From a virus: a stretch of DNA of 64,000 bases. Made by a program: the position numbers and the translations under genes. Each line of letters opens with the position of its first letter. The stretch's first letter is position 1. Of this stretch, positions 57,181-63,932 are shown piece by piece. The stretch spans positions 68,594 through 132,593 of IMG/VR virus record IMGVR_UViG_3300009506_000003, one strand, 5' to 3'. The notes under the pieces were generated by a model, which searched no databases, was not told the origin of the DNA, and worked only from the letters and a program-made list of their open reading frames with translations.

Positions 57181-57378
57181 ATGACTCAGCAAGTGACCAT
57201 CAACGAAGCCCAGAAGGCGGCTCTCAAGACCATCGTGGATGGTGGCCGTCAGTCTGCTGACACCTTCAACAAGCGGACCATCTTCGCCCTCGAGAACCGC
57301 GGTCTCGTCAAGACGACCGAGAACAAGAAGGGCATCTTCGTGGCCCCGACCGCGAAGGGGAAGAAGGCCCTCAACTAG
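57181..57378 (+). CDS. Small winged-helix-like protein
   Basis: GGGAG RBS; RTIFALENRGLV...TAKG; AT-rich upstream region with inverted repeat. Confidence 0.7.
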   Translation: MTQQVTINEAQKAALKTIVDGGRQSADTFNKRTIFALENRGLVKTTENKKGIFVAPTAKGKKALN

Positions 57379-57407
57379 CCAACCGCCACGGCTTTGGTCA
57401 TGGCGTA

Positions 57408-57449
57408 GAGCCCGGCCGCCTTCATTGGTGACCGGGCTCTTTTTTTAGC
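57408..57449 (+). terminator. Intrinsic terminator between convergent units
   Basis: AGAGCCCGGCCGCC ... GGTGACCGGGCTCT then TTTTTTAGC. Confidence 0.8.
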
Positions 57450-57452
57450 GAG

Positions 57453-57543
57453 TGGTGGGTAGGGAAGGATTCGAACCTCCAGTGGCCACTGTCGTGACTC
57501 CGGGTCTACAGCCCGGCGCGTTCAGCCATTTCGCTACCTACCC
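57453..57543 (-). tRNA. tRNA-Tyr(GTA)
   Basis: Cloverleaf, long variable arm, CT-GTA-GA loop, CCA. Confidence 0.93.
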
Positions 57544-57546
57544 ACG

Positions 57547-57620
57547 TGGAAGAGGAGCTGGGAATCGAACCCAGATGAACTGGTCCAAAGCCAGTTGCCC
57601 TGCCATTGAGCGACTCCTCC
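57547..57620 (-). tRNA. tRNA-Gln(TTG)
   Basis: ACTGG-CT-TTG-GA-CCAGT; CCA. Confidence 0.92.
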
Positions 57621-57623
57621 GTT

Positions 57624-57699
57624 TGGATGGGGAGGCGGGGGTCGAACCCACAACCTCCTGATTCAGAATCAGGCGCTCCACCAGTTGAGCTACTCCCCA
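57624..57699 (-). tRNA. tRNA-Gln(CTG)
   Basis: CCTGA-TT-CTG-AA-TCAGG; CCA. Confidence 0.92.
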
Positions 57700-57700
57700 A

Positions 57701-57774
57701 TGGAAGCCGAGACCGGATTCGAACCGGTGATGCCTGGGTTGCAGCCAGGTGCCTTTCCACTTGGCTACTCGGCT
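57701..57774 (-). tRNA. tRNA-Cys(GCA)
   Basis: CCTGG-CT-GCA-AC-CCAGG; U73; CCA. Confidence 0.93.
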
Positions 57775-57775
57775 T

Positions 57776-57849
57776 TGGGGTGACCGCGGAGAATCGAACT
57801 CCGACCATCGGGGCCACAACCCGACGCTCTACCATTGAGCTACGGCCAC
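57776..57849 (-). tRNA. tRNA-His(GTG)
   Basis: TCGGG-TT-GTG-GC-CCCGA; C73; CCA. Confidence 0.93.
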
Positions 57850-57956
57850 AAGGGGACCTCGAGCTGCCTCGGGAGCCCCTTCTGGTCGCAGACGTCAATG
57901 TCGTAGAGCTTGCGCTCATCGCAGTATCTCCAAGTTGTGGACAGAGAGATCCGCGC

Positions 57957-58007
57957 TCAGGCTTGAGCCGGATATTGATGACAGTGCTGGTAGAAGCGAC
58001 TGACCAT
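57957..58007 (-). CDS. Leader peptide MVSRFYQHCHQYPAQA of the His/Cys/Gln/Tyr tRNA cassette
   Basis: ATG 6 nt after -10 TACACT; codons TAC CAG CAC TGT CAT CAA TAT. Confidence 0.75.
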   Translation of the reverse strand: MVSRFYQHCHQYPAQA

Positions 58008-58013
58008 GAGACG

Positions 58014-58043
58014 AGTGTACGACAGGCAGGCAGGACCTGACAA
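58014..58043 (-). promoter_or_regulatory. sigma70-type promoter of the His/Cys/Gln/Tyr cassette
   Basis: TTGTCA-N18-TACACT. Confidence 0.7.
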
Positions 58044-58412
58044 CTAGATTTTCTCTATCGTGTCACCCTTGTCGCTGCAGAGGTACACCGGGAGCTGTGT
58101 GCGCCCGACCTTCCTCTCACCGTTCTGGGTGAACCAAATCAACCTGAAGATGGGGCAGTCCTGCTCATCATCGTGGACAACCACACACGGCCGCGCGGGA
58201 CCATCGAAGAGCATGTGCCTCGTGAGCCGGCCATCATTGCTGATGTCGCTCTCATCGACCTCGAAGTGGTCTCCGTCCCCGTATTCCACCTCGCTCACTT
58301 CACCAAAGACAATCCAGTGAGCTCCTGCGGGGATGGTTCTGTCATATTGGGGGTCGGGGCGCTCCGGGTTTGGAACGCGCCTGTACGCCTGCTTCTGGAA
58401 CTTCAGAATCAT
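58044..58412 (-). CDS. Hypothetical protein inside the tRNA cluster
   Basis: 122-aa ORF; purine-rich RBS region. Confidence 0.6.
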   Translation of the reverse strand: MILKFQKQAYRRVPNPERPDPQYDRTIPAGAHWIVFGEVSEVEYGDGDHFEVDESDISNDGRLTRHMLFDGPARPCVVVHDDEQDCPIFRLIWFTQNGERKVGRTQLPVYLCSDKGDTIEKI

Positions 58413-58483
58413 TTCCTACCTACCTTCCTGTCTGTCCTGCCTGCCTGTCCTCGTCGTAGCACAGGTCACGGACAGAAGGAAAG

Positions 58484-58575
58484 TGGCGGAAGGTGGAGGA
58501 ATCGAACCCCTACGCTTTTGACGCACCATGCTGGTTTTCAAGACCAGTGGCTGGACCATCCCGCCGGCACCTTCC
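58484..58575 (-). tRNA. tRNA-Ser(TGA), probably 8/4 fold
   Basis: CTGGT-CT-TGA-AA-ACCAG; acceptor GGAAGGTG/CACCTTCC; G73; long variable arm. Confidence 0.88.
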
Positions 58576-58577
58576 GT

Positions 58578-58652
58578 TGGTCGGGGTGGGCGGCTTCGAA
58601 CCGCCGACCTCTTGTCCCCCAGACAAGCGCGCTACCCCTGCGCTACACCCCG
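58578..58652 (-). tRNA. tRNA-Pro(GGG)
   Basis: CTTGT-CT-GGG-GG-ACAAG; CCA. Confidence 0.92.
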
Positions 58653-58880
58653 GACCTTGTCAAAGAGGTAGCCCAAACTGCGGCTCCCCTGCTCTTCCTC
58701 TGACATCGAGAAGCCGTAGAACGTGTCGAGGCCCGTGTGCTCCACACCGTCGTCATCGACGATGGACACTCCATTGCCGAGACCGGCCTTCTCGAAAGCC
58801 TTCTGAGCTGACTCCTTGTCTTTGAAGCGCAGCTCATCCGTGCAACATCCACAATCCAACTTCACGTACACCGTGATCAT
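58632..58880 (-). CDS. Hypothetical protein whose stop codon lies inside tRNA-Pro(GGG)
   Basis: AGGAG RBS; phage-like codon use. Confidence 0.55.
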   Translation of the reverse strand: MITVYVKLDCGCCTDELRFKDKESAQKAFEKAGLGNGVSIVDDDGVEHTGLDTFYGFSMSEEEQGSRSLGYLFDKVRGVAQG

Positions 58881-58899
58881 GACGATCTCCTGTTTCGAG

Positions 58900-58975
58900 T
58901 GGTCGGGCTGGCCAGGCTCGAACTGGCGACCTCCTGTCCCCGAGGCAGGCGCGCTACCATCTGCGCTACAGCCCG
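58900..58975 (-). tRNA. tRNA-Pro(CGG)
   Basis: CT-CGG-GG loop; CCA. Confidence 0.9.
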
Positions 58976-58976
58976 A

Positions 58977-59051
58977 TGGTCGGGGTGGTCAGGATCGAAC
59001 TGACGACATCCGGCTCCCAAAACCGGCGCGCTCCCGCTGCGCTACACCCCG
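58977..59051 (-). tRNA. tRNA-Pro(TGG)
   Basis: CCGGT-TT-TGG-GA-GCCGG; CCA. Confidence 0.92.
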
Positions 59052-59067
59052 ACAGTGCGAGAAAAGT

Positions 59068-59157
59068 TGGCGGAGCAGACAGGATTCGAACCTGCGGACG
59101 CCTCACGACGCCTACGGGTTAGCAACCCGCTGCCTTCATCCGCTCGGCCACTGCTCC
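59068..59157 (-). tRNA. tRNA-Ser(GCT)
   Basis: GCGGG-TT-GCT-AA-CCCGT; long variable arm; G73; CCA. Confidence 0.93.
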
Positions 59158-59165
59158 GCTGTGAT

Positions 59166-59279
59166 TCAGCGACTCAGTGGCGAACTGGGTGACGGGGATG
59201 GTGATGGGGAGGACGAGCTCGGGCACAGCACTGCGAGGTTGCAGTTGAGTCGTGCGCGAGTTTCGTTGAGCATCAACAT
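59166..59279 (-). CDS. Leader peptide MLMLNETRARLNCNLAVLCPSSSSPSPSPSPSSPLSR of the Ser/Pro tRNA cassette
   Basis: GAGGAGG RBS; 15 consecutive Ser/Pro codons; stop 8 nt before tRNA-Ser. Confidence 0.75.
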   Translation of the reverse strand: MLMLNETRARLNCNLAVLCPSSSSPSPSPSPSSPLSR

Positions 59280-59299
59280 GATGACGTCCTCCTCAGTCG

Positions 59300-59328
59300 A
59301 ATGTACGATAGCTGTGAGTGTTCGTCAA
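59300..59328 (-). promoter_or_regulatory. sigma70-type promoter of the Ser/Pro cassette
   Basis: TTGACG-N17-TACATT. Confidence 0.75.
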
Positions 59329-59334
59329 CAACTC

Positions 59335-59547
59335 ATGGAGTGGTCAGTCACAAGAATCGAGGGAGTGGTGCGCCACCTCGTCCCGTCCCTCACCAATGTA
59401 GAGGTCAGCTTCCCCTCTCCGGGAGTGGTGCGCGTGCTGATCACAGCCGAGAACGCATGGGGCGTGCAGAGCAGGGTCCAGTCAGTACTCGACCAAGCCC
59501 TGCCCGCCTCCATTCAGCGTGTTGAGGTGTTGGTTGTCAGAGGCTAG
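59335..59547 (+). CDS. Hypothetical protein
   Basis: Short ORF filling the gap; weak RBS. Confidence 0.4.
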   Translation: MEWSVTRIEGVVRHLVPSLTNVEVSFPSPGVVRVLITAENAWGVQSRVQSVLDQALPASIQRVEVLVVRG

Positions 59548-60005
59548 TCGTCAGATGCTTCTGCCCACGCAATGGTGACCGCCCAGTGAGACAAAACTGG
59601 GTCGAACGCTTTGAACGCGGAAGGGTTGTCGATGCCCATCGTCATCTTGCCGTAGCTGAATCCGTTCTCTCCCCAGTCGGCAGTGTATTTCCCACCACGG
59701 GTGTTGAGCTCGACGCTCCCGCTTTCCGGACCACTGTTGGTCACGGTAGTGAGGCCCCACCCGCCTTCCTCGTCCTTCACCATGTCGATGTAGTAGTAGT
59801 CCCCTGGGACGAACTCCTTGCCACCAGCGTCGAAGGACGGTCCACGGAAGTTGAGGGTCATGTCCCCAGAGGGGGTGAACTTCCAGAACTGGGAGTTCTC
59901 TTTGTTGTGCTTGCTCTGCACAACGGGGCCTAGCTCGACGACAAGCGTCTTGTCCCACTTCTTGGTAACGGAAAGGCAACGGAATTTGGCACGTACCTGG
60001 CTCAT
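59544..60005 (-). CDS. Hypothetical phage protein (VRAKFRC...EN..FWKFTPSG)
   Basis: GGAGG RBS; internal duplication pattern. Confidence 0.7.
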   Translation of the reverse strand: MSQVRAKFRCLSVTKKWDKTLVVELGPVVQSKHNKENSQFWKFTPSGDMTLNFRGPSFDAGGKEFVPGDYYYIDMVKDEEGGWGLTTVTNSGPESGSVELNTRGGKYTADWGENGFSYGKMTMGIDNPSAFKAFDPVLSHWAVTIAWAEASDD

Positions 60006-60090
60006 CTCTTCCTCCAAACGGTTGAATGTGAGCCGCGCTGTTGACCTGGATCGCGACGTGCCAGTTACCTCCACCGTAGCATGGTCAAGG

Positions 60091-60690
60091 TCAGAAGTCA
60101 GCTTCTTCGAGCAGCGTGTAGGTGAAGCCATCCCCAAACAAGGATGAGGACTTCTTGGCCAGCGAGTACAAAAACTGGTGCTGGAAGGGGTCAGCCACCA
60201 CTTGGCAGCCAGCACTCCACTTGTCCACAACCGTACTGGCCTGGCTAGACCCAGCGTGGTGGAGGTTGATGCCGAACATCCCTTCCTGGATGGAATCCGG
60301 GTCGAGGTCGAGGACCTCGTCCTTGTTGTTGTCCCGGTAGACTTTCAGAGGGCTCTTCTGCACCAGAGCTGGATACCCGCTGTGGAGCCCGAGCTTGAAA
60401 GCGCCCCGGTACTGTCCTGGGACCAGGATGGCGGTACCGTTCACGTTCATCGGGTGCTCCCGGTAGTAGACACCGGGGTCCGTGGTGGCGGGGAACATGA
60501 AGCAGTTCCATCTGTCATTGAAAAGGTACATCACGCCGATCACATCGTTGAAGGTGTTGGCGCGGTTGTCCAGGGTCCGAATGCCGAAGATGTTGAGGTC
60601 GTAGCCACCCTTCGACTGGTCACCGAAGACGAGGTAGTTCTTCGAGCGCATGACGGCTTTGATGAGCTTCGCATCGCTGAGTACAAGCAT
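60091..60690 (-). CDS. Putative peptidoglycan hydrolase/endolysin (YkuD-like H...WSAGCQV)
   Basis: LNIFGIR...FND...TTDPG...GINLH...WSAGCQV...FTYTL; AGGAGG RBS. Confidence 0.6.
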   Translation of the reverse strand: MLVLSDAKLIKAVMRSKNYLVFGDQSKGGYDLNIFGIRTLDNRANTFNDVIGVMYLFNDRWNCFMFPATTDPGVYYREHPMNVNGTAILVPGQYRGAFKLGLHSGYPALVQKSPLKVYRDNNKDEVLDLDPDSIQEGMFGINLHHAGSSQASTVVDKWSAGCQVVADPFQHQFLYSLAKKSSSLFGDGFTYTLLEEADF

Positions 60691-60722
60691 GTAGGCCTCC
60701 TATCCAGAAGAGCCTACCACGA

Positions 60723-60806
60723 TGGTGCGGCGGGAGGGAGTCGAACCCTCACCCTTTCGGCCCGGATTTTAAGTCCGGTGTGTCTACCTGATTCCACCAC
60801 CGCCGC
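60723..60806 (-). tRNA. tRNA-Leu(TAA)
   Basis: CCGGA-CT-TAA-AA-TCCGG; variable arm; A73; CCA. Confidence 0.93.
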
Positions 60807-60807
60807 G

Positions 60808-60892
60808 TGGTGCGCGGGGCGGGATTCGAACCCGCATGCCGAAGCACCGAGGTTTGAGCTCGGCGTGTCTACCTTGCTTCCACCACCCGCGC
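60808..60892 (-). tRNA. tRNA-Leu(CAA)
   Basis: CCGAG-CT-CAA-AC-CTCGG; CCA. Confidence 0.93.
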
Positions 60893-60966
60893 TCGAGCTG
60901 TGCGCCCTGGAACCCTGTCACAGCTCAATGGCGCCCTCCTATGTGCCTGACGCCACCCACTTCGAT

Positions 60967-61052
60967 TGGTGCCCGAGGAGAGATTCGAACTCTCACGCCG
61001 AAGCACGGGTTTCTGAGACCCGCGTGTCTACCAAAGATTCCACCACTCGGGC
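60967..61052 (-). tRNA. tRNA-Leu(CAG)
   Basis: CGGGT-CT-CAG-AA-ACCCG; CCA. Confidence 0.93.
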
Positions 61053-61053
61053 T

Positions 61054-61139
61054 TGGTCCGCGAGGGGAGACTCGAACTCCCACGCACAAGGCGCCGGTCC
61101 CTCAGACCGGTGCGTCTACCTGGATTCCGCCACTCGCGG
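61054..61139 (-). tRNA. tRNA-Leu(GAG)
   Basis: CCGGT-CT-GAG-GG-ACCGG; CCA. Confidence 0.93.
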
Positions 61140-61159
61140 ACGGGTTTGCTTGGGAGCTG

Positions 61160-61237
61160 CTAGCGCAACAGGGATAGCAGCCCGGTGCTAAGGTGCGGGC
61201 CGCGTAACAGGGACAGGACTCTGTGGTCGCGCTGCAT
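61160..61237 (-). CDS. Leader peptide MQRDHRVLSLLRGPHLSTGLLSLLR of the Leu tRNA cassette
   Basis: ATG 6 nt after -10 TAAGGT; 8 Leu codons (CTG x4, TTA, CTT, CTA, TTG). Confidence 0.72.
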   Translation of the reverse strand: MQRDHRVLSLLRGPHLSTGLLSLLR

Positions 61238-61243
61238 GGTCAC

Positions 61244-61273
61244 ACCTTACGCGCTCCGAAGCCTCTTCGTCAA
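61244..61273 (-). promoter_or_regulatory. sigma70-type promoter of the Leu cassette
   Basis: TTGACG-N18-TAAGGT. Confidence 0.7.
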
Positions 61274-61351
61274 GTCCTCAAAAAACCATAGCCGTTTGCG
61301 TAATAAGGTCCCTGAAGCTAACTCTGTTCACTTTTCACTGGAGGATCTCAA

Positions 61352-62419
61352 ATGCAGGTAGCAGCATCCGCCGCAGGCCCTGAAAAGACGGGTCACGGCA
61401 AACGTCCTCGCATCTCTGTCAAAGAGAAGCGGAAGCAAATGGCCATCGAGCTCTTCGCCAAAGCGGTGGAAGAGGCCGAGAAGCCGGCTCAGTCAGACTT
61501 CATCGTCCCCAAAGTCGACTTTGCAATGATTGGCCCCAAAGAAGCCAAGGAGCTTCTCCAAAAGAGCCAGGGCAACAGAAAGATCCGTGAGCTTCACGTT
61601 CGCTGGCTGGAAAAAGTCATGCGTGACGGGAAATGGGTGTTCGGACCTCCCATCATCATCGATCTCAACGGAGTCCTCATTGGTGGGCACCACAGGCTCC
61701 ACGCCGTCATAAGGTCAGGGCTCTACGTTCCCATGACCGTCATGAAGGGGGCTGACCCGCAGCTCAACGAGTGGACCAACCAACACAAGGAAGCCAAACT
61801 GGGTGACGAGATTCATCGCTACGGGATGAACAACGCCAACGCGCGTGGGGCCATAGTGAGGTTGGCCGCCGAACTCACCGCCAAGAGGAGAATCCCCGTC
61901 AACTCCTTTAGCGACTATGCTGAGTGGGCTCGGGTCTTCAAGGGAGTCGACTGGGTGGTAGAGAATCTGGTGGGCAAAGACCCCTGGAGGAAATCATCCA
62001 TCACGGGAGCTTTCGCTTACGCCTACAACACTGACCCAGATGCCGTGAAGCTCTTCTGCACGAAGATGGTCACTGGGGAAGGCCTTTCAAAAACAGACCC
62101 GGTGCTGGCGTTCCGAAATTGGTTTCTTTGGTACACTGCTACCGACAAGGACAAGAAGGATGTCCGCAAGCACGCCATTGCAGGCGGTGGGGATGAGCGG
62201 AAGCGAGTCTACACGTTCAAGGTGCTGCACTGTATCCGTGCGGCTATCGAGAAGAAGAAGCCAAGAACCTTGAAGTCCTTGAGGATGGAAGTTTCTCTCG
62301 ACGATCTTGAGTACTTCAGGCAAGCCAACGAGACCAGGGCGGCCAAAAAGATGGTCAACTACTGGTCCGAGCCGAGGATGTCTTCCGAGGAATTTCTCTC
62401 GTACCTCAAAGAGGGGTAG
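61352..62419 (+). CDS. ParB-like N-terminal domain protein
   Basis: I.P..AKELL...NRKI...M..GKW...III...G.LIGGHHRLHAV; GGAGG RBS; ATAAG promoter at 61303. Confidence 0.7.
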   Translation: MQVAASAAGPEKTGHGKRPRISVKEKRKQMAIELFAKAVEEAEKPAQSDFIVPKVDFAMIGPKEAKELLQKSQGNRKIRELHVRWLEKVMRDGKWVFGPPIIIDLNGVLIGGHHRLHAVIRSGLYVPMTVMKGADPQLNEWTNQHKEAKLGDEIHRYGMNNANARGAIVRLAAELTAKRRIPVNSFSDYAEWARVFKGVDWVVENLVGKDPWRKSSITGAFAYAYNTDPDAVKLFCTKMVTGEGLSKTDPVLAFRNWFLWYTATDKDKKDVRKHAIAGGGDERKRVYTFKVLHCIRAAIEKKKPRTLKSLRMEVSLDDLEYFRQANETRAAKKMVNYWSEPRMSSEEFLSYLKEG

Positions 62420-63606: not shown

Positions 63607-63682
63607 TGGCGGGAGTGGAGGGAGTCGAACCCTCAGCCATCGGGTTAACGGCCCGCTGCTCTACCATCTGAGCTTCACTCCC
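63607..63682 (-). tRNA. tRNA-Asn(GTT)
   Basis: CGGG-CC-GTT-AA-CCCG; G73; CCA. Confidence 0.9.
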
Positions 63683-63777
63683 GAGTGGGGTGGCGTCAGA
63701 GGTGCATTCCCCGTGACGCCGGCCTACCGTGACGAGACAAGATGCCTCTGCTCGCTCGTGAGGGCACATCCCCATAA

Positions 63778-63851
63778 TGGTGGACCAGGTTGGTGTCGAC
63801 CCAACGTCTCGAGCTCTTCAGACTCGTGCTAAACCCCTCAGCTACTGGTCC
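63778..63851 (-). tRNA. tRNA-Phe(GAA)
   Basis: CGAGT-CT-GAA-GA-GCTCG; atypical T-loop GTCGACA; CCA. Confidence 0.85.
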
Positions 63852-63858
63852 AAGTTTT

Positions 63859-63932
63859 TGGTGGAAGTGACAGGAATCGAACCTGCATCTCTCGGGTGCA
63901 AACCGAGGGCTCTCCCGTTGAGCTACACCCCC
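63859..63932 (-). tRNA. tRNA-Ala(TGC)
   Basis: CTCGG-TT-TGC-AC-CCGAG; G3-U70; CCA. Confidence 0.92.

What the first reader, a model, noticed from the sequence alone, without database searches (positions are those of the whole stretch)
57850..58043. Leaderless YQHCHQY peptide precedes the His-Cys-Gln-Gln-Tyr tRNAs
The layout is TTGTCA-N18-TACACT-N6-ATG. Seven consecutive codons (TAC CAG CAC TGT CAT CAA TAT) use only the four amino acids of the cassette, with both codons of Tyr, Gln and His. A hairpin (GCTCA-AGCC-TGAGC, extendable by ATCCG/CGGAT) covers the stop codon, and another (AAGGGG...CCCCTT) abuts tRNA-His. This is the least likely of the three matches to be chance.
Basis: partly seen in the sequence, partly recalled or inferred. 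Interest (0 to 1): 0.9.

Follow-up and report, generated by a model that had tools for sequence, protein, structure and literature searches.

The report
Codon-matched leader ORF before phage tRNAs
A marine-sediment phage begins its His-Cys-Gln-Gln-Tyr tRNA gene block with a tiny reading frame spelled in those four amino acids. Two relatives keep the design, so ribosomes probably use it to gauge the supply of these tRNAs, but how the signal is passed on is not shown.

Summary
On the minus strand, TTGTCA-N18-TACACT-N6-ATG opens a 16-codon ORF (MVSRFYQHCHQYPAQA, 58007-57957), 107 nt before tRNA-His-Cys-Gln-Gln-Tyr.

- **Chance:** the run YQHCHQY is the only run of 7 or more His/Cys/Gln/Tyr codons in six frames of the 132.6-kb contig. 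Only 2 of 20,000 dinucleotide shuffles reach it.
- **Conservation:** both relatives found with this cassette keep a run. A metagenome contig, whose neighbouring protein is 41% identical, has MTSWFQQHCHQYPA. A 202-kb phage (DNA polymerase 59% identical) has an otherwise unrelated leader ending QQHYCH.
- **System:** the Ser/Pro and Leu tRNA units here, and four units in the 202-kb phage, carry their own matched leaders.
- **Mechanism:** I found no U-tract terminator, no conserved ribosome-dependent RNA switch and no leader-tRNA pairing in any of the three genomes. Classical attenuation is therefore not supported, and the output step is unknown.

My reading is a translated, codon-matched sensor of decoding capacity for the tRNA unit (confidence 0.6).

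Seven full-text searches found no published account. Earlier AI notes of this scan report the same design on other phage DNA (81 notes, at least 79 genomes). I did not test those notes.

The parts
58038..58043 (-). -35-like hexamer TTGTCA. It directly follows the TAG stop of the upstream 122-aa gene.
   Evidence: One of only 2 promoter-like sites in 57300-61500; the other heads the Ser/Pro leader. Shuffles give 0.9 +/- 1.1. L028 has TTGGCA at the same place.
58014..58019 (-). -10-like hexamer TACACT, 6 nt before the ATG (leaderless geometry).
   Evidence: Identical hexamer and spacing in L028. L071 has TACAGT-N6-ATG.
57957..58007 (-). Leader ORF of 16 codons plus TGA, encoding MVSRFYQHCHQYPAQA*.
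   Evidence: Against L028, 8 codons are identical, 3 differ synonymously and 4 differ non-synonymously.
57972..57992 (-). Regulatory-codon run TAC CAG CAC TGT CAT CAA TAT (YQHCHQY).
   Evidence: Only run of at least 7 in the contig. 2 of 20,000 shuffles reach it. Counterparts are QQHCHQY in L028 and QQHYCH in L071.
57949..57973 (-). Hairpin A (ATCCG-GCTCA-AGCC-TGAGC-G-CGGAT), which covers the stop codon.
   Evidence: L028 has the same shape, with one U-A to C-G change and one C-G to U-G change. It is absent from L071.
57921..57954 (-). Hairpin B: a CU-rich arm (UCUCU) paired to GGAGA.
   Evidence: The core is conserved in L028. No U-tract follows it.
57850..57881 (-). GC-rich hairpin AAGGGG...CCCCTT that abuts tRNA-His.
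   Evidence: It forms whatever ribosome position is masked. It is followed by UUGUGG only. It has no counterpart in L028.
57453..57849 (-). The tRNA cassette: His(GTG), Cys(GCA), Gln(CTG), Gln(TTG), Tyr(GTA).
   Evidence: ARAGORN and Infernal at 59-68 bits. L071 has the same order. L028 shows His followed by the start of Cys.
57408..57446 (.). Hairpin with a T-run on the + strand, at the end of the convergent + strand gene and of the tRNA unit.
   Evidence: Read directly. It shows that canonical U-tract terminators occur in this genome.
59166..59279 (-). Sibling leader before tRNA-Ser-Pro-Pro: 37 codons ending ...CPSSSSPSPSPSPSSPLSR*. The stop lies 8 nt before tRNA-Ser.
   Evidence: L071 has a counterpart with a 28-nt identical stretch.
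61160..61237 (-). Sibling leader before four tRNA-Leu genes: MQRDHRVLSLLRGPHLSTGLLSLLR*.
   Evidence: Against L071 there are 7 synonymous changes, including TCC to AGC (Ser), and 8 non-synonymous ones.

Best explanation
The 16-codon ORF is a translated, probably leaderless, leader at the 5' end of the His-Cys-Gln-Gln-Tyr tRNA transcription unit. Its seven-codon run is read only by the five tRNAs encoded behind it. The speed of a ribosome across the run therefore reports how well these four amino acids are being decoded in the infected cell. I think the time the ribosome spends on the leader sets how much of the tRNA precursor is completed or matured. The phage would then make this tRNA set on demand, for example when host tRNAs are scarce or have been cut.

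**Shown:** the ORF, its exact codon-to-tRNA match, its rarity, its conservation in two relatives, and matched leaders on the other tRNA units.

**Inferred:** the promoter and transcription start, translation, stalling, the direction of control and the output step.

Because no intrinsic terminator or RNA switch is present, I favour a factor-dependent output over trp-type attenuation. Among such outputs I lean towards a stalled ribosome masking the C-rich run from Rho, as recalled for tnaC and mgtL. That lean is weak.
For: **Rarity**
- This is the only run of at least 7 such codons in six frames of 132.6 kb.
- 2 of 20,000 shuffles reach it.
- 7 of 7 run codons are cognate to the cassette, and each of the 5 tRNAs has a codon in the run.

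**Conservation**
- L028 keeps the promoter-like hexamers, the spacing, the ATG and FQQHCHQYPA. Its neighbouring protein is only 41% identical.
- Against L028, 3 of the 7 codon differences are synonymous third-base changes, and the Tyr to Gln change stays inside the set.
- L071, from a complete 202-kb relative, has a leader unrelated in sequence that ends in QQHYCH just before the stop. 6 of 20,000 shuffles reach that run.

**Specificity within genomes**
- In the window's leader-by-set table the diagonal dominates: 8/16, 16/37 and 8/27, against backgrounds of 0.11, 0.19 and 0.09.
- In L071 the leader before the 18-tRNA array has 33 of 36 residues from that array's 12 amino acids, with all 12 present. 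The binomial P is 5.6e-6.

**Signs of translation in the sibling leaders**
- The Leu leader has a TCC to AGC serine switch.
- In a variant contig of the Ser/Pro leader, all 3 listed changes inside the Ser/Pro run are synonymous. Five of the seven changed codons before the run are non-synonymous.

**Negative control**
- I saw no matched ORF in three 183-192-nt gaps before tRNA groups of Rhodobacter phage RcXuper. That phage was picked only as the best tRNA BLAST hit.
Against: - There is no expression, transcription-start or ribosome data.
- No U-tract terminator lies between leader and tRNA in the window or in L071.
- Masking a ribosome footprint changes no conserved downstream helix in the window, L028 or L071.
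- The free fold is unremarkable: z = -1.5 for the window and -2.1 for L028.
- The region is only mildly C-rich. C/G is 1.2 in the window and 0.91 in L028, which is poor support for a Rho loading site.
- The ATG has no Shine-Dalgarno sequence, so translation depends on an unproven leaderless start.
- The promoter-like hexamers of L071 fall below the scan's threshold.
- Only two relatives carry the cassette, and they share ancestry, so conservation is not independent recurrence.
- The Glu unit of L071 has only a weak match: 2 of 12 residues, P = 0.09.
- The choice of statistic came after seeing the pattern.
Confidence: 0.6

Rival explanations
1. The same sensor with the opposite sign. Slow decoding of the run uncouples the ribosome from RNA polymerase and lowers tRNA output. 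This would be a cassette-specific, stringent-like brake that stops the phage making tRNAs that cannot be charged.
For: All the evidence for a codon-matched translated leader applies. With no terminator or antiterminator to read, the sequence does not fix the direction of control.
Against: A stalled ribosome leaves only structured tRNA sequence between itself and the polymerase. By general knowledge that is a poor substrate for Rho. A phage gains little from lowering tRNA supply exactly when decoding is slow. Neither point was tested here.
Confidence: 0.15
2. The ORF encodes a small functional peptide, for example a metal-binding one built around His-Cys-His. Its match to the tRNA set is then incidental.
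For: The peptide core is conserved between the window and L028. His, Cys and His stay close together in all three versions: HCH, HCH and HYCH. From the TTG that follows the upstream stop, a 26-28-aa frame is open in both the window and L028.
Against: Apart from the run, the L071 leader shares no recognisable sequence with the window's. Upstream of the ATG, differences from L028 are spread 3/3/3 over codon positions, as expected for non-coding DNA. The idea does not explain why the Ser/Pro, Leu and 12-amino-acid leaders also mirror their own tRNA units.
Confidence: 0.1
3. There is no coding function. The conserved stretch is promoter, processing-site or RNA-structure sequence, and the open frame with its codon content is a by-product.
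For: The whole intergenic region is conserved against L028, at 74% column identity, not only the ORF. Hairpins A and B are conserved there. A 16-nt inverted repeat overlaps the promoter spacer. The Ser/Pro leaders share 28 identical nucleotides, which points to some nucleotide-level constraint.
Against: The run persists in L071 with a different order and different flanks. The synonymous changes and the within-set Tyr to Gln change fit codon-level selection. Shuffles that keep composition almost never give such runs. Leaders match their own unit and not the others.
Confidence: 0.1
4. Classical trp/his-type transcription attenuation. Ribosome position on the run chooses between an antiterminator and an intrinsic terminator placed before tRNA-His.
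For: A short ORF carries its regulatory codons near its 3' end. Two hairpins follow, and their arms overlap by a few bases (57949-57954). A strong GC hairpin abuts the tRNA.
Against: The scan lists no terminator-like site on this strand, and none of the three hairpins read is followed by a U-tract. The GC hairpin forms under every masked ribosome position and is missing from L028. The sibling leaders end 8 and 20 nt before their tRNAs, which leaves no room for a terminator. No Rfam leader family matches at E up to 1.
Confidence: 0.05

Closest known systems
Leader-peptide transcription attenuators of amino-acid operons (trpL, hisL, pheL, leuL, thrL, ilvL). Textbook knowledge, recalled.
   Same: A very short ORF at the start of the transcript carries a cluster of codons for the amino acids that the downstream genes serve. 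The cluster sits a few codons before the stop. One leader can cover several amino acids, as in the multivalent thr and ilv leaders.
   Different: The genes behind it are tRNA genes, not biosynthetic enzymes. The element is phage-borne. It has no U-tract terminator and no antiterminator alternative. It probably starts leaderless. It matches no Rfam leader family.
pheM leader of the pheST (phenylalanyl-tRNA synthetase) operon. Recalled.
   Same: Leader-peptide control applied to the translation apparatus itself rather than to amino-acid synthesis.
   Different: pheM works through an intrinsic terminator and controls a protein-coding operon. Here the products are the tRNAs themselves and no terminator is found.
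Rho-dependent leader-peptide systems (tnaC of tnaCAB; mgtL and corL of Salmonella). Recalled.
   Same: These are terminator-less designs in which ribosome occupancy of a short ORF decides whether transcription continues.
   Different: No extended C-rich, G-poor tract is present. C/G is 1.2 here and 0.91 in L028. No Rho dependence can be tested here, and the targets differ.
T-box riboswitches. Recalled.
   Same: They answer the same biological question, whether the supply of a particular charged tRNA is adequate, and they act in cis on translation-related genes.
   Different: T-boxes bind the uncharged tRNA directly, without a ribosome or an ORF. No T-box model matches here.
Codon-matched leader ORFs before phage tRNA arrays, noted earlier in this scan (AI notes, unpublished, untested by me).
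   Same: The layout is the same: each tRNA block is headed by a mini-ORF spelled in that block's amino acids, often leaderless. Some copies are reported without an ordinary terminator.
   Different: Many of those notes report a switchable terminator. This lineage shows none in three genomes. I did not examine those other genomes.

Membership tests
Classical ribosome-mediated transcription attenuator (trp/his type) | Short leader ORF with clustered regulatory codons cognate to what the operon supplies | tested here: met
   A 16-codon ORF carries 7 consecutive codons that are all read by the downstream tRNAs.
Classical ribosome-mediated transcription attenuator (trp/his type) | Intrinsic terminator (GC hairpin plus U-tract) between the leader and the regulated genes | tested here: not met
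   No terminator-like site lies on the minus strand in 57300-61500. None lies before the tRNA units of L071.
Classical ribosome-mediated transcription attenuator (trp/his type) | Mutually exclusive antiterminator and terminator helices selected by ribosome position | tested here: not met
   Masked-footprint folding of the window, L028 and L071 shows no conserved switch.
Classical ribosome-mediated transcription attenuator (trp/his type) | Match to a curated leader RNA family (Rfam His, Leu, Thr, Trp or Phe leaders) | tested here: not met
   Only tRNA hits and weak chance-level hits appear at E up to 1-10.
Rho-dependent leader-peptide attenuator (tnaC / mgtL type) | Extended C-rich, G-poor unstructured tract for Rho loading next to the ORF | tested here: inconclusive
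   The run itself has about three times more C than G. Over the whole leader-to-tRNA stretch C/G is 1.2, and 0.91 in L028.
Rho-dependent leader-peptide attenuator (tnaC / mgtL type) | Termination depends on Rho and is relieved by a stalled ribosome | not testable with these tools
   This needs in-vitro or in-vivo assays with and without Rho or a Rho inhibitor.
T-box riboswitch | Specifier loop and T-box sequence that bind uncharged tRNA | tested here: not met
   No T-box model matches in 57300-61400 at E up to 1.
Codon-matched leader ORFs heading phage tRNA units (class noted by this scan, unpublished) | The ORF lies at the head of the unit, behind its own promoter-like site | tested here: met
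   A promoter-like site is at 58043-58014. In L071 the leader follows a divergent intergenic region.
Codon-matched leader ORFs heading phage tRNA units (class noted by this scan, unpublished) | Each tRNA unit of the genome has a leader matched to its own amino acids and not to those of other units | tested here: met
   All 3 units in the window whose 5' end is visible are matched. In L071, 4 of 5 are clearly matched and the Glu unit is weak.
Codon-matched leader ORFs heading phage tRNA units (class noted by this scan, unpublished) | Relatives keep the codon content while the sequence drifts | tested here: met
   Both relatives with the cassette do so: QQHCHQY in L028 and QQHYCH in L071.
Codon-matched leader ORFs heading phage tRNA units (class noted by this scan, unpublished) | The leader is translated, and its decoding speed changes tRNA output | not testable with these tools
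   The sequence gives only indirect signs, namely synonymous changes and the TCC to AGC serine switch in the Leu leader.

The most novel reading that the evidence does not exclude
This would be a terminator-less, ribosome-operated demand switch for tRNA genes. The codon run is both the gauge and the output site. While a ribosome waits on the run for scarce His, Cys, Gln or Tyr tRNA, it hides that stretch from a termination or decay factor, and the phage's own tRNAs for exactly those codons get made. When decoding is fast, the bare leader shuts the unit down. Together with the sibling leaders, the phage would monitor each group of amino acids separately. It could then answer host tRNA depletion, for instance by anticodon nucleases, cassette by cassette.
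Probability: 0.3. Interest if true: 0.9.

Novelty: new variant of a known kind. Interest (0 to 1): 0.78.

Why it matters
Leader-peptide sensing is a classic way for bacteria to match amino-acid synthesis to demand. My seven full-text searches found no account of it acting on tRNA genes or in phages.

If these leaders work as proposed, large phages do more than carry spare tRNAs. They would measure, group by group, how well the host is decoding and then top up only what is short. That bears on how phages cope with codon-usage mismatch and with host defences that cut tRNAs.

It would also yield compact, codon-specific sensors. The copies described here have no ordinary terminator, so they would point to an output mechanism not yet described for attenuators.

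Tried and rejected
**Searches for relatives that gave nothing useful**
- Megablast and blastn of the region against 50,697 phage records found no match.
- The exact 21-mer of the run and a degenerate back-translated pattern found 0 hits in IMG/VR.
- The 122-aa neighbour had no relative in IMG/VR.
- 26 IMG/VR loci encode relatives of the 199-aa endolysin-like protein. None has a tRNA array nearby; 2 of the 26 have a single tRNA call.
- A tRNA-Cys 5' pattern hit two unrelated phages only.
- The degenerate pattern hit 10 places in GTDB genomes. None lies next to a tRNA-His. The two I read lie inside long bacterial coding regions. The other eight I judged by the tRNA scan alone.
- A 21-mer of the Ser/Pro leader found only the 202-kb relative again.
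- blastn of the tRNA cassette against phage records found only single-tRNA similarities in 8 records.

The 1158-nt contig of the 80%-identical neighbour protein P0002 could therefore not be read.

**Sequencing runs**
- No RNA holder was listed.
- Read laying showed contigs about 86-91% identical that cover all three leaders. For 57850-58043 its table listed only a 1-nt deletion at 57957 in one run, and 93 rows were not shown. Variation in this leader could therefore not be read.
- For the Ser/Pro leader, 14 of 22 differences were listed.

**Mechanism ideas tested and not supported**
- An intrinsic terminator.
- A ribosome-position switch.
- A Rho loading tract.
- The leader pairing with the 5' strand of the first tRNA. 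In 8 of 9 units it was no better than shuffles; only the Glu unit of L071 reached 0.03.

**Other ideas**
- The 73-nt spacer might be a relic of a tRNA-His. Its local alignment to the L028 tRNA-His is weakly above shuffles (76 of 2000), it does not align to the other two, and Infernal gives no hit at E up to 10. This is left open.
- Read-through of the upstream TAG into the in-frame leader. The frame follows from the conserved 36-nt spacing, and L071 lacks the upstream gene. I rejected this as a general explanation.
- I recalled that the E. coli tRNA-Phe genes have an attenuator-like leader. The pheV and pheU upstream regions of K-12 show only a promoter next to the tRNA. The two old papers were not held. 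I dropped the recollection.
- The 192-kb relative G001 has only three tRNAs (Arg, Met, Trp) and I saw no matched leader.
- Rhodobacter phage RcXuper showed no matched ORFs by eye in three gaps. I did not quantify this.
- A sequence look-up of the L071 leader in the scan's notes found nothing.
- Supplementary files of papers were not consulted.
Full report
**Setting.** The window is the last 64 kb of a 132,593-nt IMG/VR virus contig with 58% G+C. CheckV rates it 69% complete. Public runs that hold it are labelled marine sediment metagenomes.

The contig carries a tmRNA and 17 tRNA genes called by ARAGORN. Infernal adds a fourth tRNA-Leu at 60970-61052.

From 61243 down to 57453 the minus strand holds three tRNA groups with a few small genes between them:
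- four tRNA-Leu;
- Ser-Pro-Pro, then an 82-aa gene, then Pro-Ser;
- a 122-aa gene, then His-Cys-Gln-Gln-Tyr.

This stretch ends at a hairpin with a T-run that it shares with a convergent gene.

**The observation.** On the minus strand the TAG stop of the 122-aa gene is followed at once by the layout below.

| Element | Coordinates |
|---|---|
| TTGTCA | 58043-58038 |
| spacer | 18 nt |
| TACACT | 58019-58014 |
| spacer | 6 nt |
| ATG | 58007 |

- The ORF reads MVSRFYQHCHQYPAQA and stops at TGA 57959-57957, 107 nt before tRNA-His.
- Codons 6-12 are TAC CAG CAC TGT CAT CAA TAT.
- All seven are read by the five tRNAs behind them, and each of the five tRNAs has at least one codon in the run (anticodons).
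- The promoter scan lists only two promoter-like sites in 57300-61500. One is this site and the other heads the Ser/Pro leader. Shuffles give 0.9 +/- 1.1.
The fold as a whole is not unusual: z = -1.5, with 13 of 200 shuffles as good.

**Is it chance?** I do not think so.
- Six-frame translation of the whole contig holds 8 runs of at least five His/Cys/Gln/Tyr codons, 3 of at least six and 1 of at least seven, which is this one.
- 2 of 20,000 dinucleotide-preserving shuffles of 57850-58043 reach seven.
- The sibling leaders behave alike. The run PSSSSPSPSPSPSSP is the only Ser/Pro run of at least 15 in the contig, and there are 2 of at least 10. It ends 20 nt before tRNA-Ser, and the leader's stop codon lies 8 nt before that tRNA. 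None of 20,000 shuffles reaches it.
- The Leu leader is weaker. It has 8 Leu in 17 codons, and 32 such stop-free stretches exist in the contig.
- Each leader is rich in its own set and not in the others.

| Leader | His/Cys/Gln/Tyr | Ser/Pro | Leu |
|---|---|---|---|
| His unit | 8/16 | 2/16 | 0/16 |
| Ser/Pro unit | 2/37 | 16/37 | 6/37 |
| Leu unit | 3/27 | 4/27 | 8/27 |
| six-frame background | 0.11 | 0.19 | 0.09 |

I chose these statistics after seeing the pattern, so the P values are rough guides.

**Relatives.** No cultured phage is close. The best DNA polymerase matches are under 35% identical, and the region has no DNA match among phage records.

*L028.* The 122-aa neighbour has two relatives in the large protein collection, at 80% and 41% identity. 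The contig of the 41% one was found in a metagenome (L028, 1169 nt, 48% G+C).
- It is colinear with the window. After the TAG stop it reads TTGGCA, 18 nt, TACACT, 6 nt, ATG.
- Its leader is MTSWFQQHCHQYPA. After 42 nt come tRNA-His and the start of tRNA-Cys.
- Over the 15 codons compared, 8 are identical, 3 differ synonymously (Ser, His, Ala) and 4 differ otherwise. One of those four is Tyr to Gln, which stays inside the set. Another is the earlier stop.
- Upstream of the ATG the differences fall 3/3/3 on the codon positions, as non-coding DNA would. Inside the ORF they fall 4/1/5.

*L071.* Through the DNA polymerase I found five IMG/VR contigs at 59-66% identity.
- Two are complete genomes, and 2 of the 5 have tRNAs.
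- The 202-kb one (G002, locus L071) has 35 tRNA calls. They include the same Leu, Ser-Pro-Pro-Ser and His-Cys-Gln-Gln-Tyr cassettes.
- Its His unit follows a divergent intergenic region, with no 122-aa gene. It starts TTGAAG, 17 nt, TACAGT, 6 nt, ATG, with the leader MSRASKARDLLMAPLRGQQHYCH.
- That leader is unrelated to the window's except for the run, which again holds all four amino acids and both Gln and both His codons. 6 of 20,000 shuffles reach it.

**The system in the 202-kb relative**
- Ser/Pro leader: ...CPSSSSPSPSQPPSPRS.
- Leu leader: MNAMARILSRLRGPHLCAGLLSLLR.
- A 37-codon leader, MQRDHRVLSLLRGPHLSTGLLSLLR's counterpart aside, stands before the long array Asp, Arg, Arg, Met, Ile, Val, Gly, Ile, Arg, Lys, Lys, Trp, Gly, Thr x3, Ala, Phe, Asn. 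It reads MQLRTTIARAAAKARAGRTAIITVKGWNRTFRDPIAM.
- After the start codon, 33 of its 36 residues belong to that array's 12 amino acids, and all 12 are present. The background is 0.57, so the binomial P is 5.6e-6.
- The Glu-Glu unit has only a weak candidate: 2 Glu in 12, one of each codon, P = 0.09.
- The window's Ala-Phe-Asn genes at 63607-63932 are the tail of the corresponding array. Its head lies beyond the contig end.

**Signs of translation in the sibling leaders**
- Window versus L071, Leu leader: 11 identical codons, 7 synonymous differences and 8 non-synonymous. One synonymous difference is TCC to AGC, a change between the two serine codon families.
- In contigs of other runs about 86% identical over the Ser/Pro leader, the three listed changes inside the Ser/Pro run are all synonymous. 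Before the run, five of the seven changed codons are non-synonymous. Only 14 of 22 differences were listed.
- The two Ser/Pro leaders also share 28 identical nucleotides, so some nucleotide-level constraint exists as well.

**Negative control.** Rhodobacter phage RcXuper was chosen only because it was the best BLAST hit of the tRNA cassette. I saw no matched ORF in three 183-192-nt gaps before its tRNA groups. This was by eye and not quantified. Matched leaders are therefore not an automatic by-product of tRNA arrays.

**Mechanism: what the sequence does not show**
- No terminator-like site lies between any leader and its tRNAs, in the window or in L071. Yet a canonical U-tract terminator closes the unit at 57408-57446.
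- The sibling leaders stop 8 and 20 nt before their tRNAs, which leaves no room for a terminator.
- Hairpin A, which covers the stop codon, and hairpin B (UCUCU paired to GGAGA) recur in L028. There, one U-A pair has become C-G and one C-G has become U-G. They are absent from L071.
- Folding with a 30-nt ribosome footprint masked at the run or at the stop codon changes no conserved downstream helix in any of the three.
- Pairing of the leader with the 5' strand of the first tRNA is no better than shuffles in 8 of 9 units.
- The stretch from the ATG to the tRNA is only mildly C-rich: C/G is 1.2, and 0.91 in L028.
- No Rfam family other than tRNA fits.

**What I conclude.**
- *Well supported by comparison:* the sensor half of the idea. 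A translated ORF whose decoding needs exactly the tRNAs that follow, kept by selection on codon content.
- *Not visible:* the output half.
- *My commitment:* a ribosome-occupancy model in which dwell time on the run controls completion or maturation of the tRNA precursor.
- *My lean:* a factor-dependent stop, in which the run is masked by the waiting ribosome, and output rises when decoding is slow. This last part is inference only.
- *Rivals:* the reverse sign, a functional micropeptide, and a purely nucleotide-level element are scored in their own section.

**Comparison with what is known.** It works like a leader-peptide attenuator, but it fails two defining tests of that family, the terminator and the antiterminator. 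I therefore do not file it as a member.

Seven full-text searches found no description of leader peptides before tRNA genes. For these papers I saw search listings and abstracts. The only text I read was one passage of PMC3082878, which was irrelevant.

Earlier AI notes of this scan describe the same design in other phages: 81 notes in at least 79 genomes. Some copies are reported with terminators and some without. I did not test those genomes, and they do not count as independent support.

Noticed in passing
window 58021-58036 and 58434-58449; L028 589-602 and 949-962: A perfect 16-nt inverted repeat (GACAGGCAGGCAGGAC and its complement) brackets the 122-aa gene. Its downstream arm fills the spacer of the leader's promoter-like site. 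L028 keeps it (14 nt, 93%) with one matching double change. It could be a long-range RNA stem used as a processing site, or a paired operator.
   Followed up: partly
window 60970-61052 (-): A fourth tRNA-Leu, with anticodon CAG by my reading of the sequence. ARAGORN missed it and Infernal found it at 52 bits.
   Followed up: partly
window 58484-58575 (-): The tRNA-Ser(TGA) scores best against the Rfam selenocysteine-tRNA model (44.9 bits, cut-off 47) rather than the general tRNA model.
   Followed up: no
window 57850-57926 (-): The extra spacer between hairpin B and tRNA-His has no counterpart in L028. It aligns weakly with the L028 tRNA-His (76 of 2000 shuffles as good), with the anticodon loop missing. 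It may be a decayed tRNA-His copy. Infernal does not see it.
   Followed up: partly
L028 1050-1071; L071 17050-17071; window 57919-57935: A GGAG-type Shine-Dalgarno-like motif sits 6-8 nt before the GTG that begins tRNA-His in L028 and L071. In the window it sits before an ATG at 57919. Its meaning is unknown.
   Followed up: no
L028 3-395 (+): The relative carries an RF-1 domain (GGQ) protein gene directly before tRNA-Pro and tRNA-Ser (Pfam E = 6.9e-26). tblastn finds no counterpart in the window's partial contig.
   Followed up: partly
L071 10500-11082 (-): A gene that looked like an HNH endonuclease by eye lies inside the long tRNA array, between tRNA-Asp and tRNA-Arg. I did not search it against families.
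   Followed up: no
L029 1267-1430; L030 1003-1170: Two unrelated IMG/VR phages carry a tRNA-like gene whose first 26 nt equal the window's tRNA-Cys. It is interrupted by about 110 nt that ARAGORN calls a tRNA with a four-base anticodon.
   Followed up: no
window 61160-61237 (-) and L071 12274-12351: The Leu leaders keep LRGPHL..GLLSLLR at the amino-acid level, beyond the Leu codons themselves. Some peptide-level constraint may therefore also act.
   Followed up: no
whole contig: CAGGCAG occurs 41 times on both strands, against about 24 expected from composition. Several copies lie just upstream of start codons.
   Followed up: no
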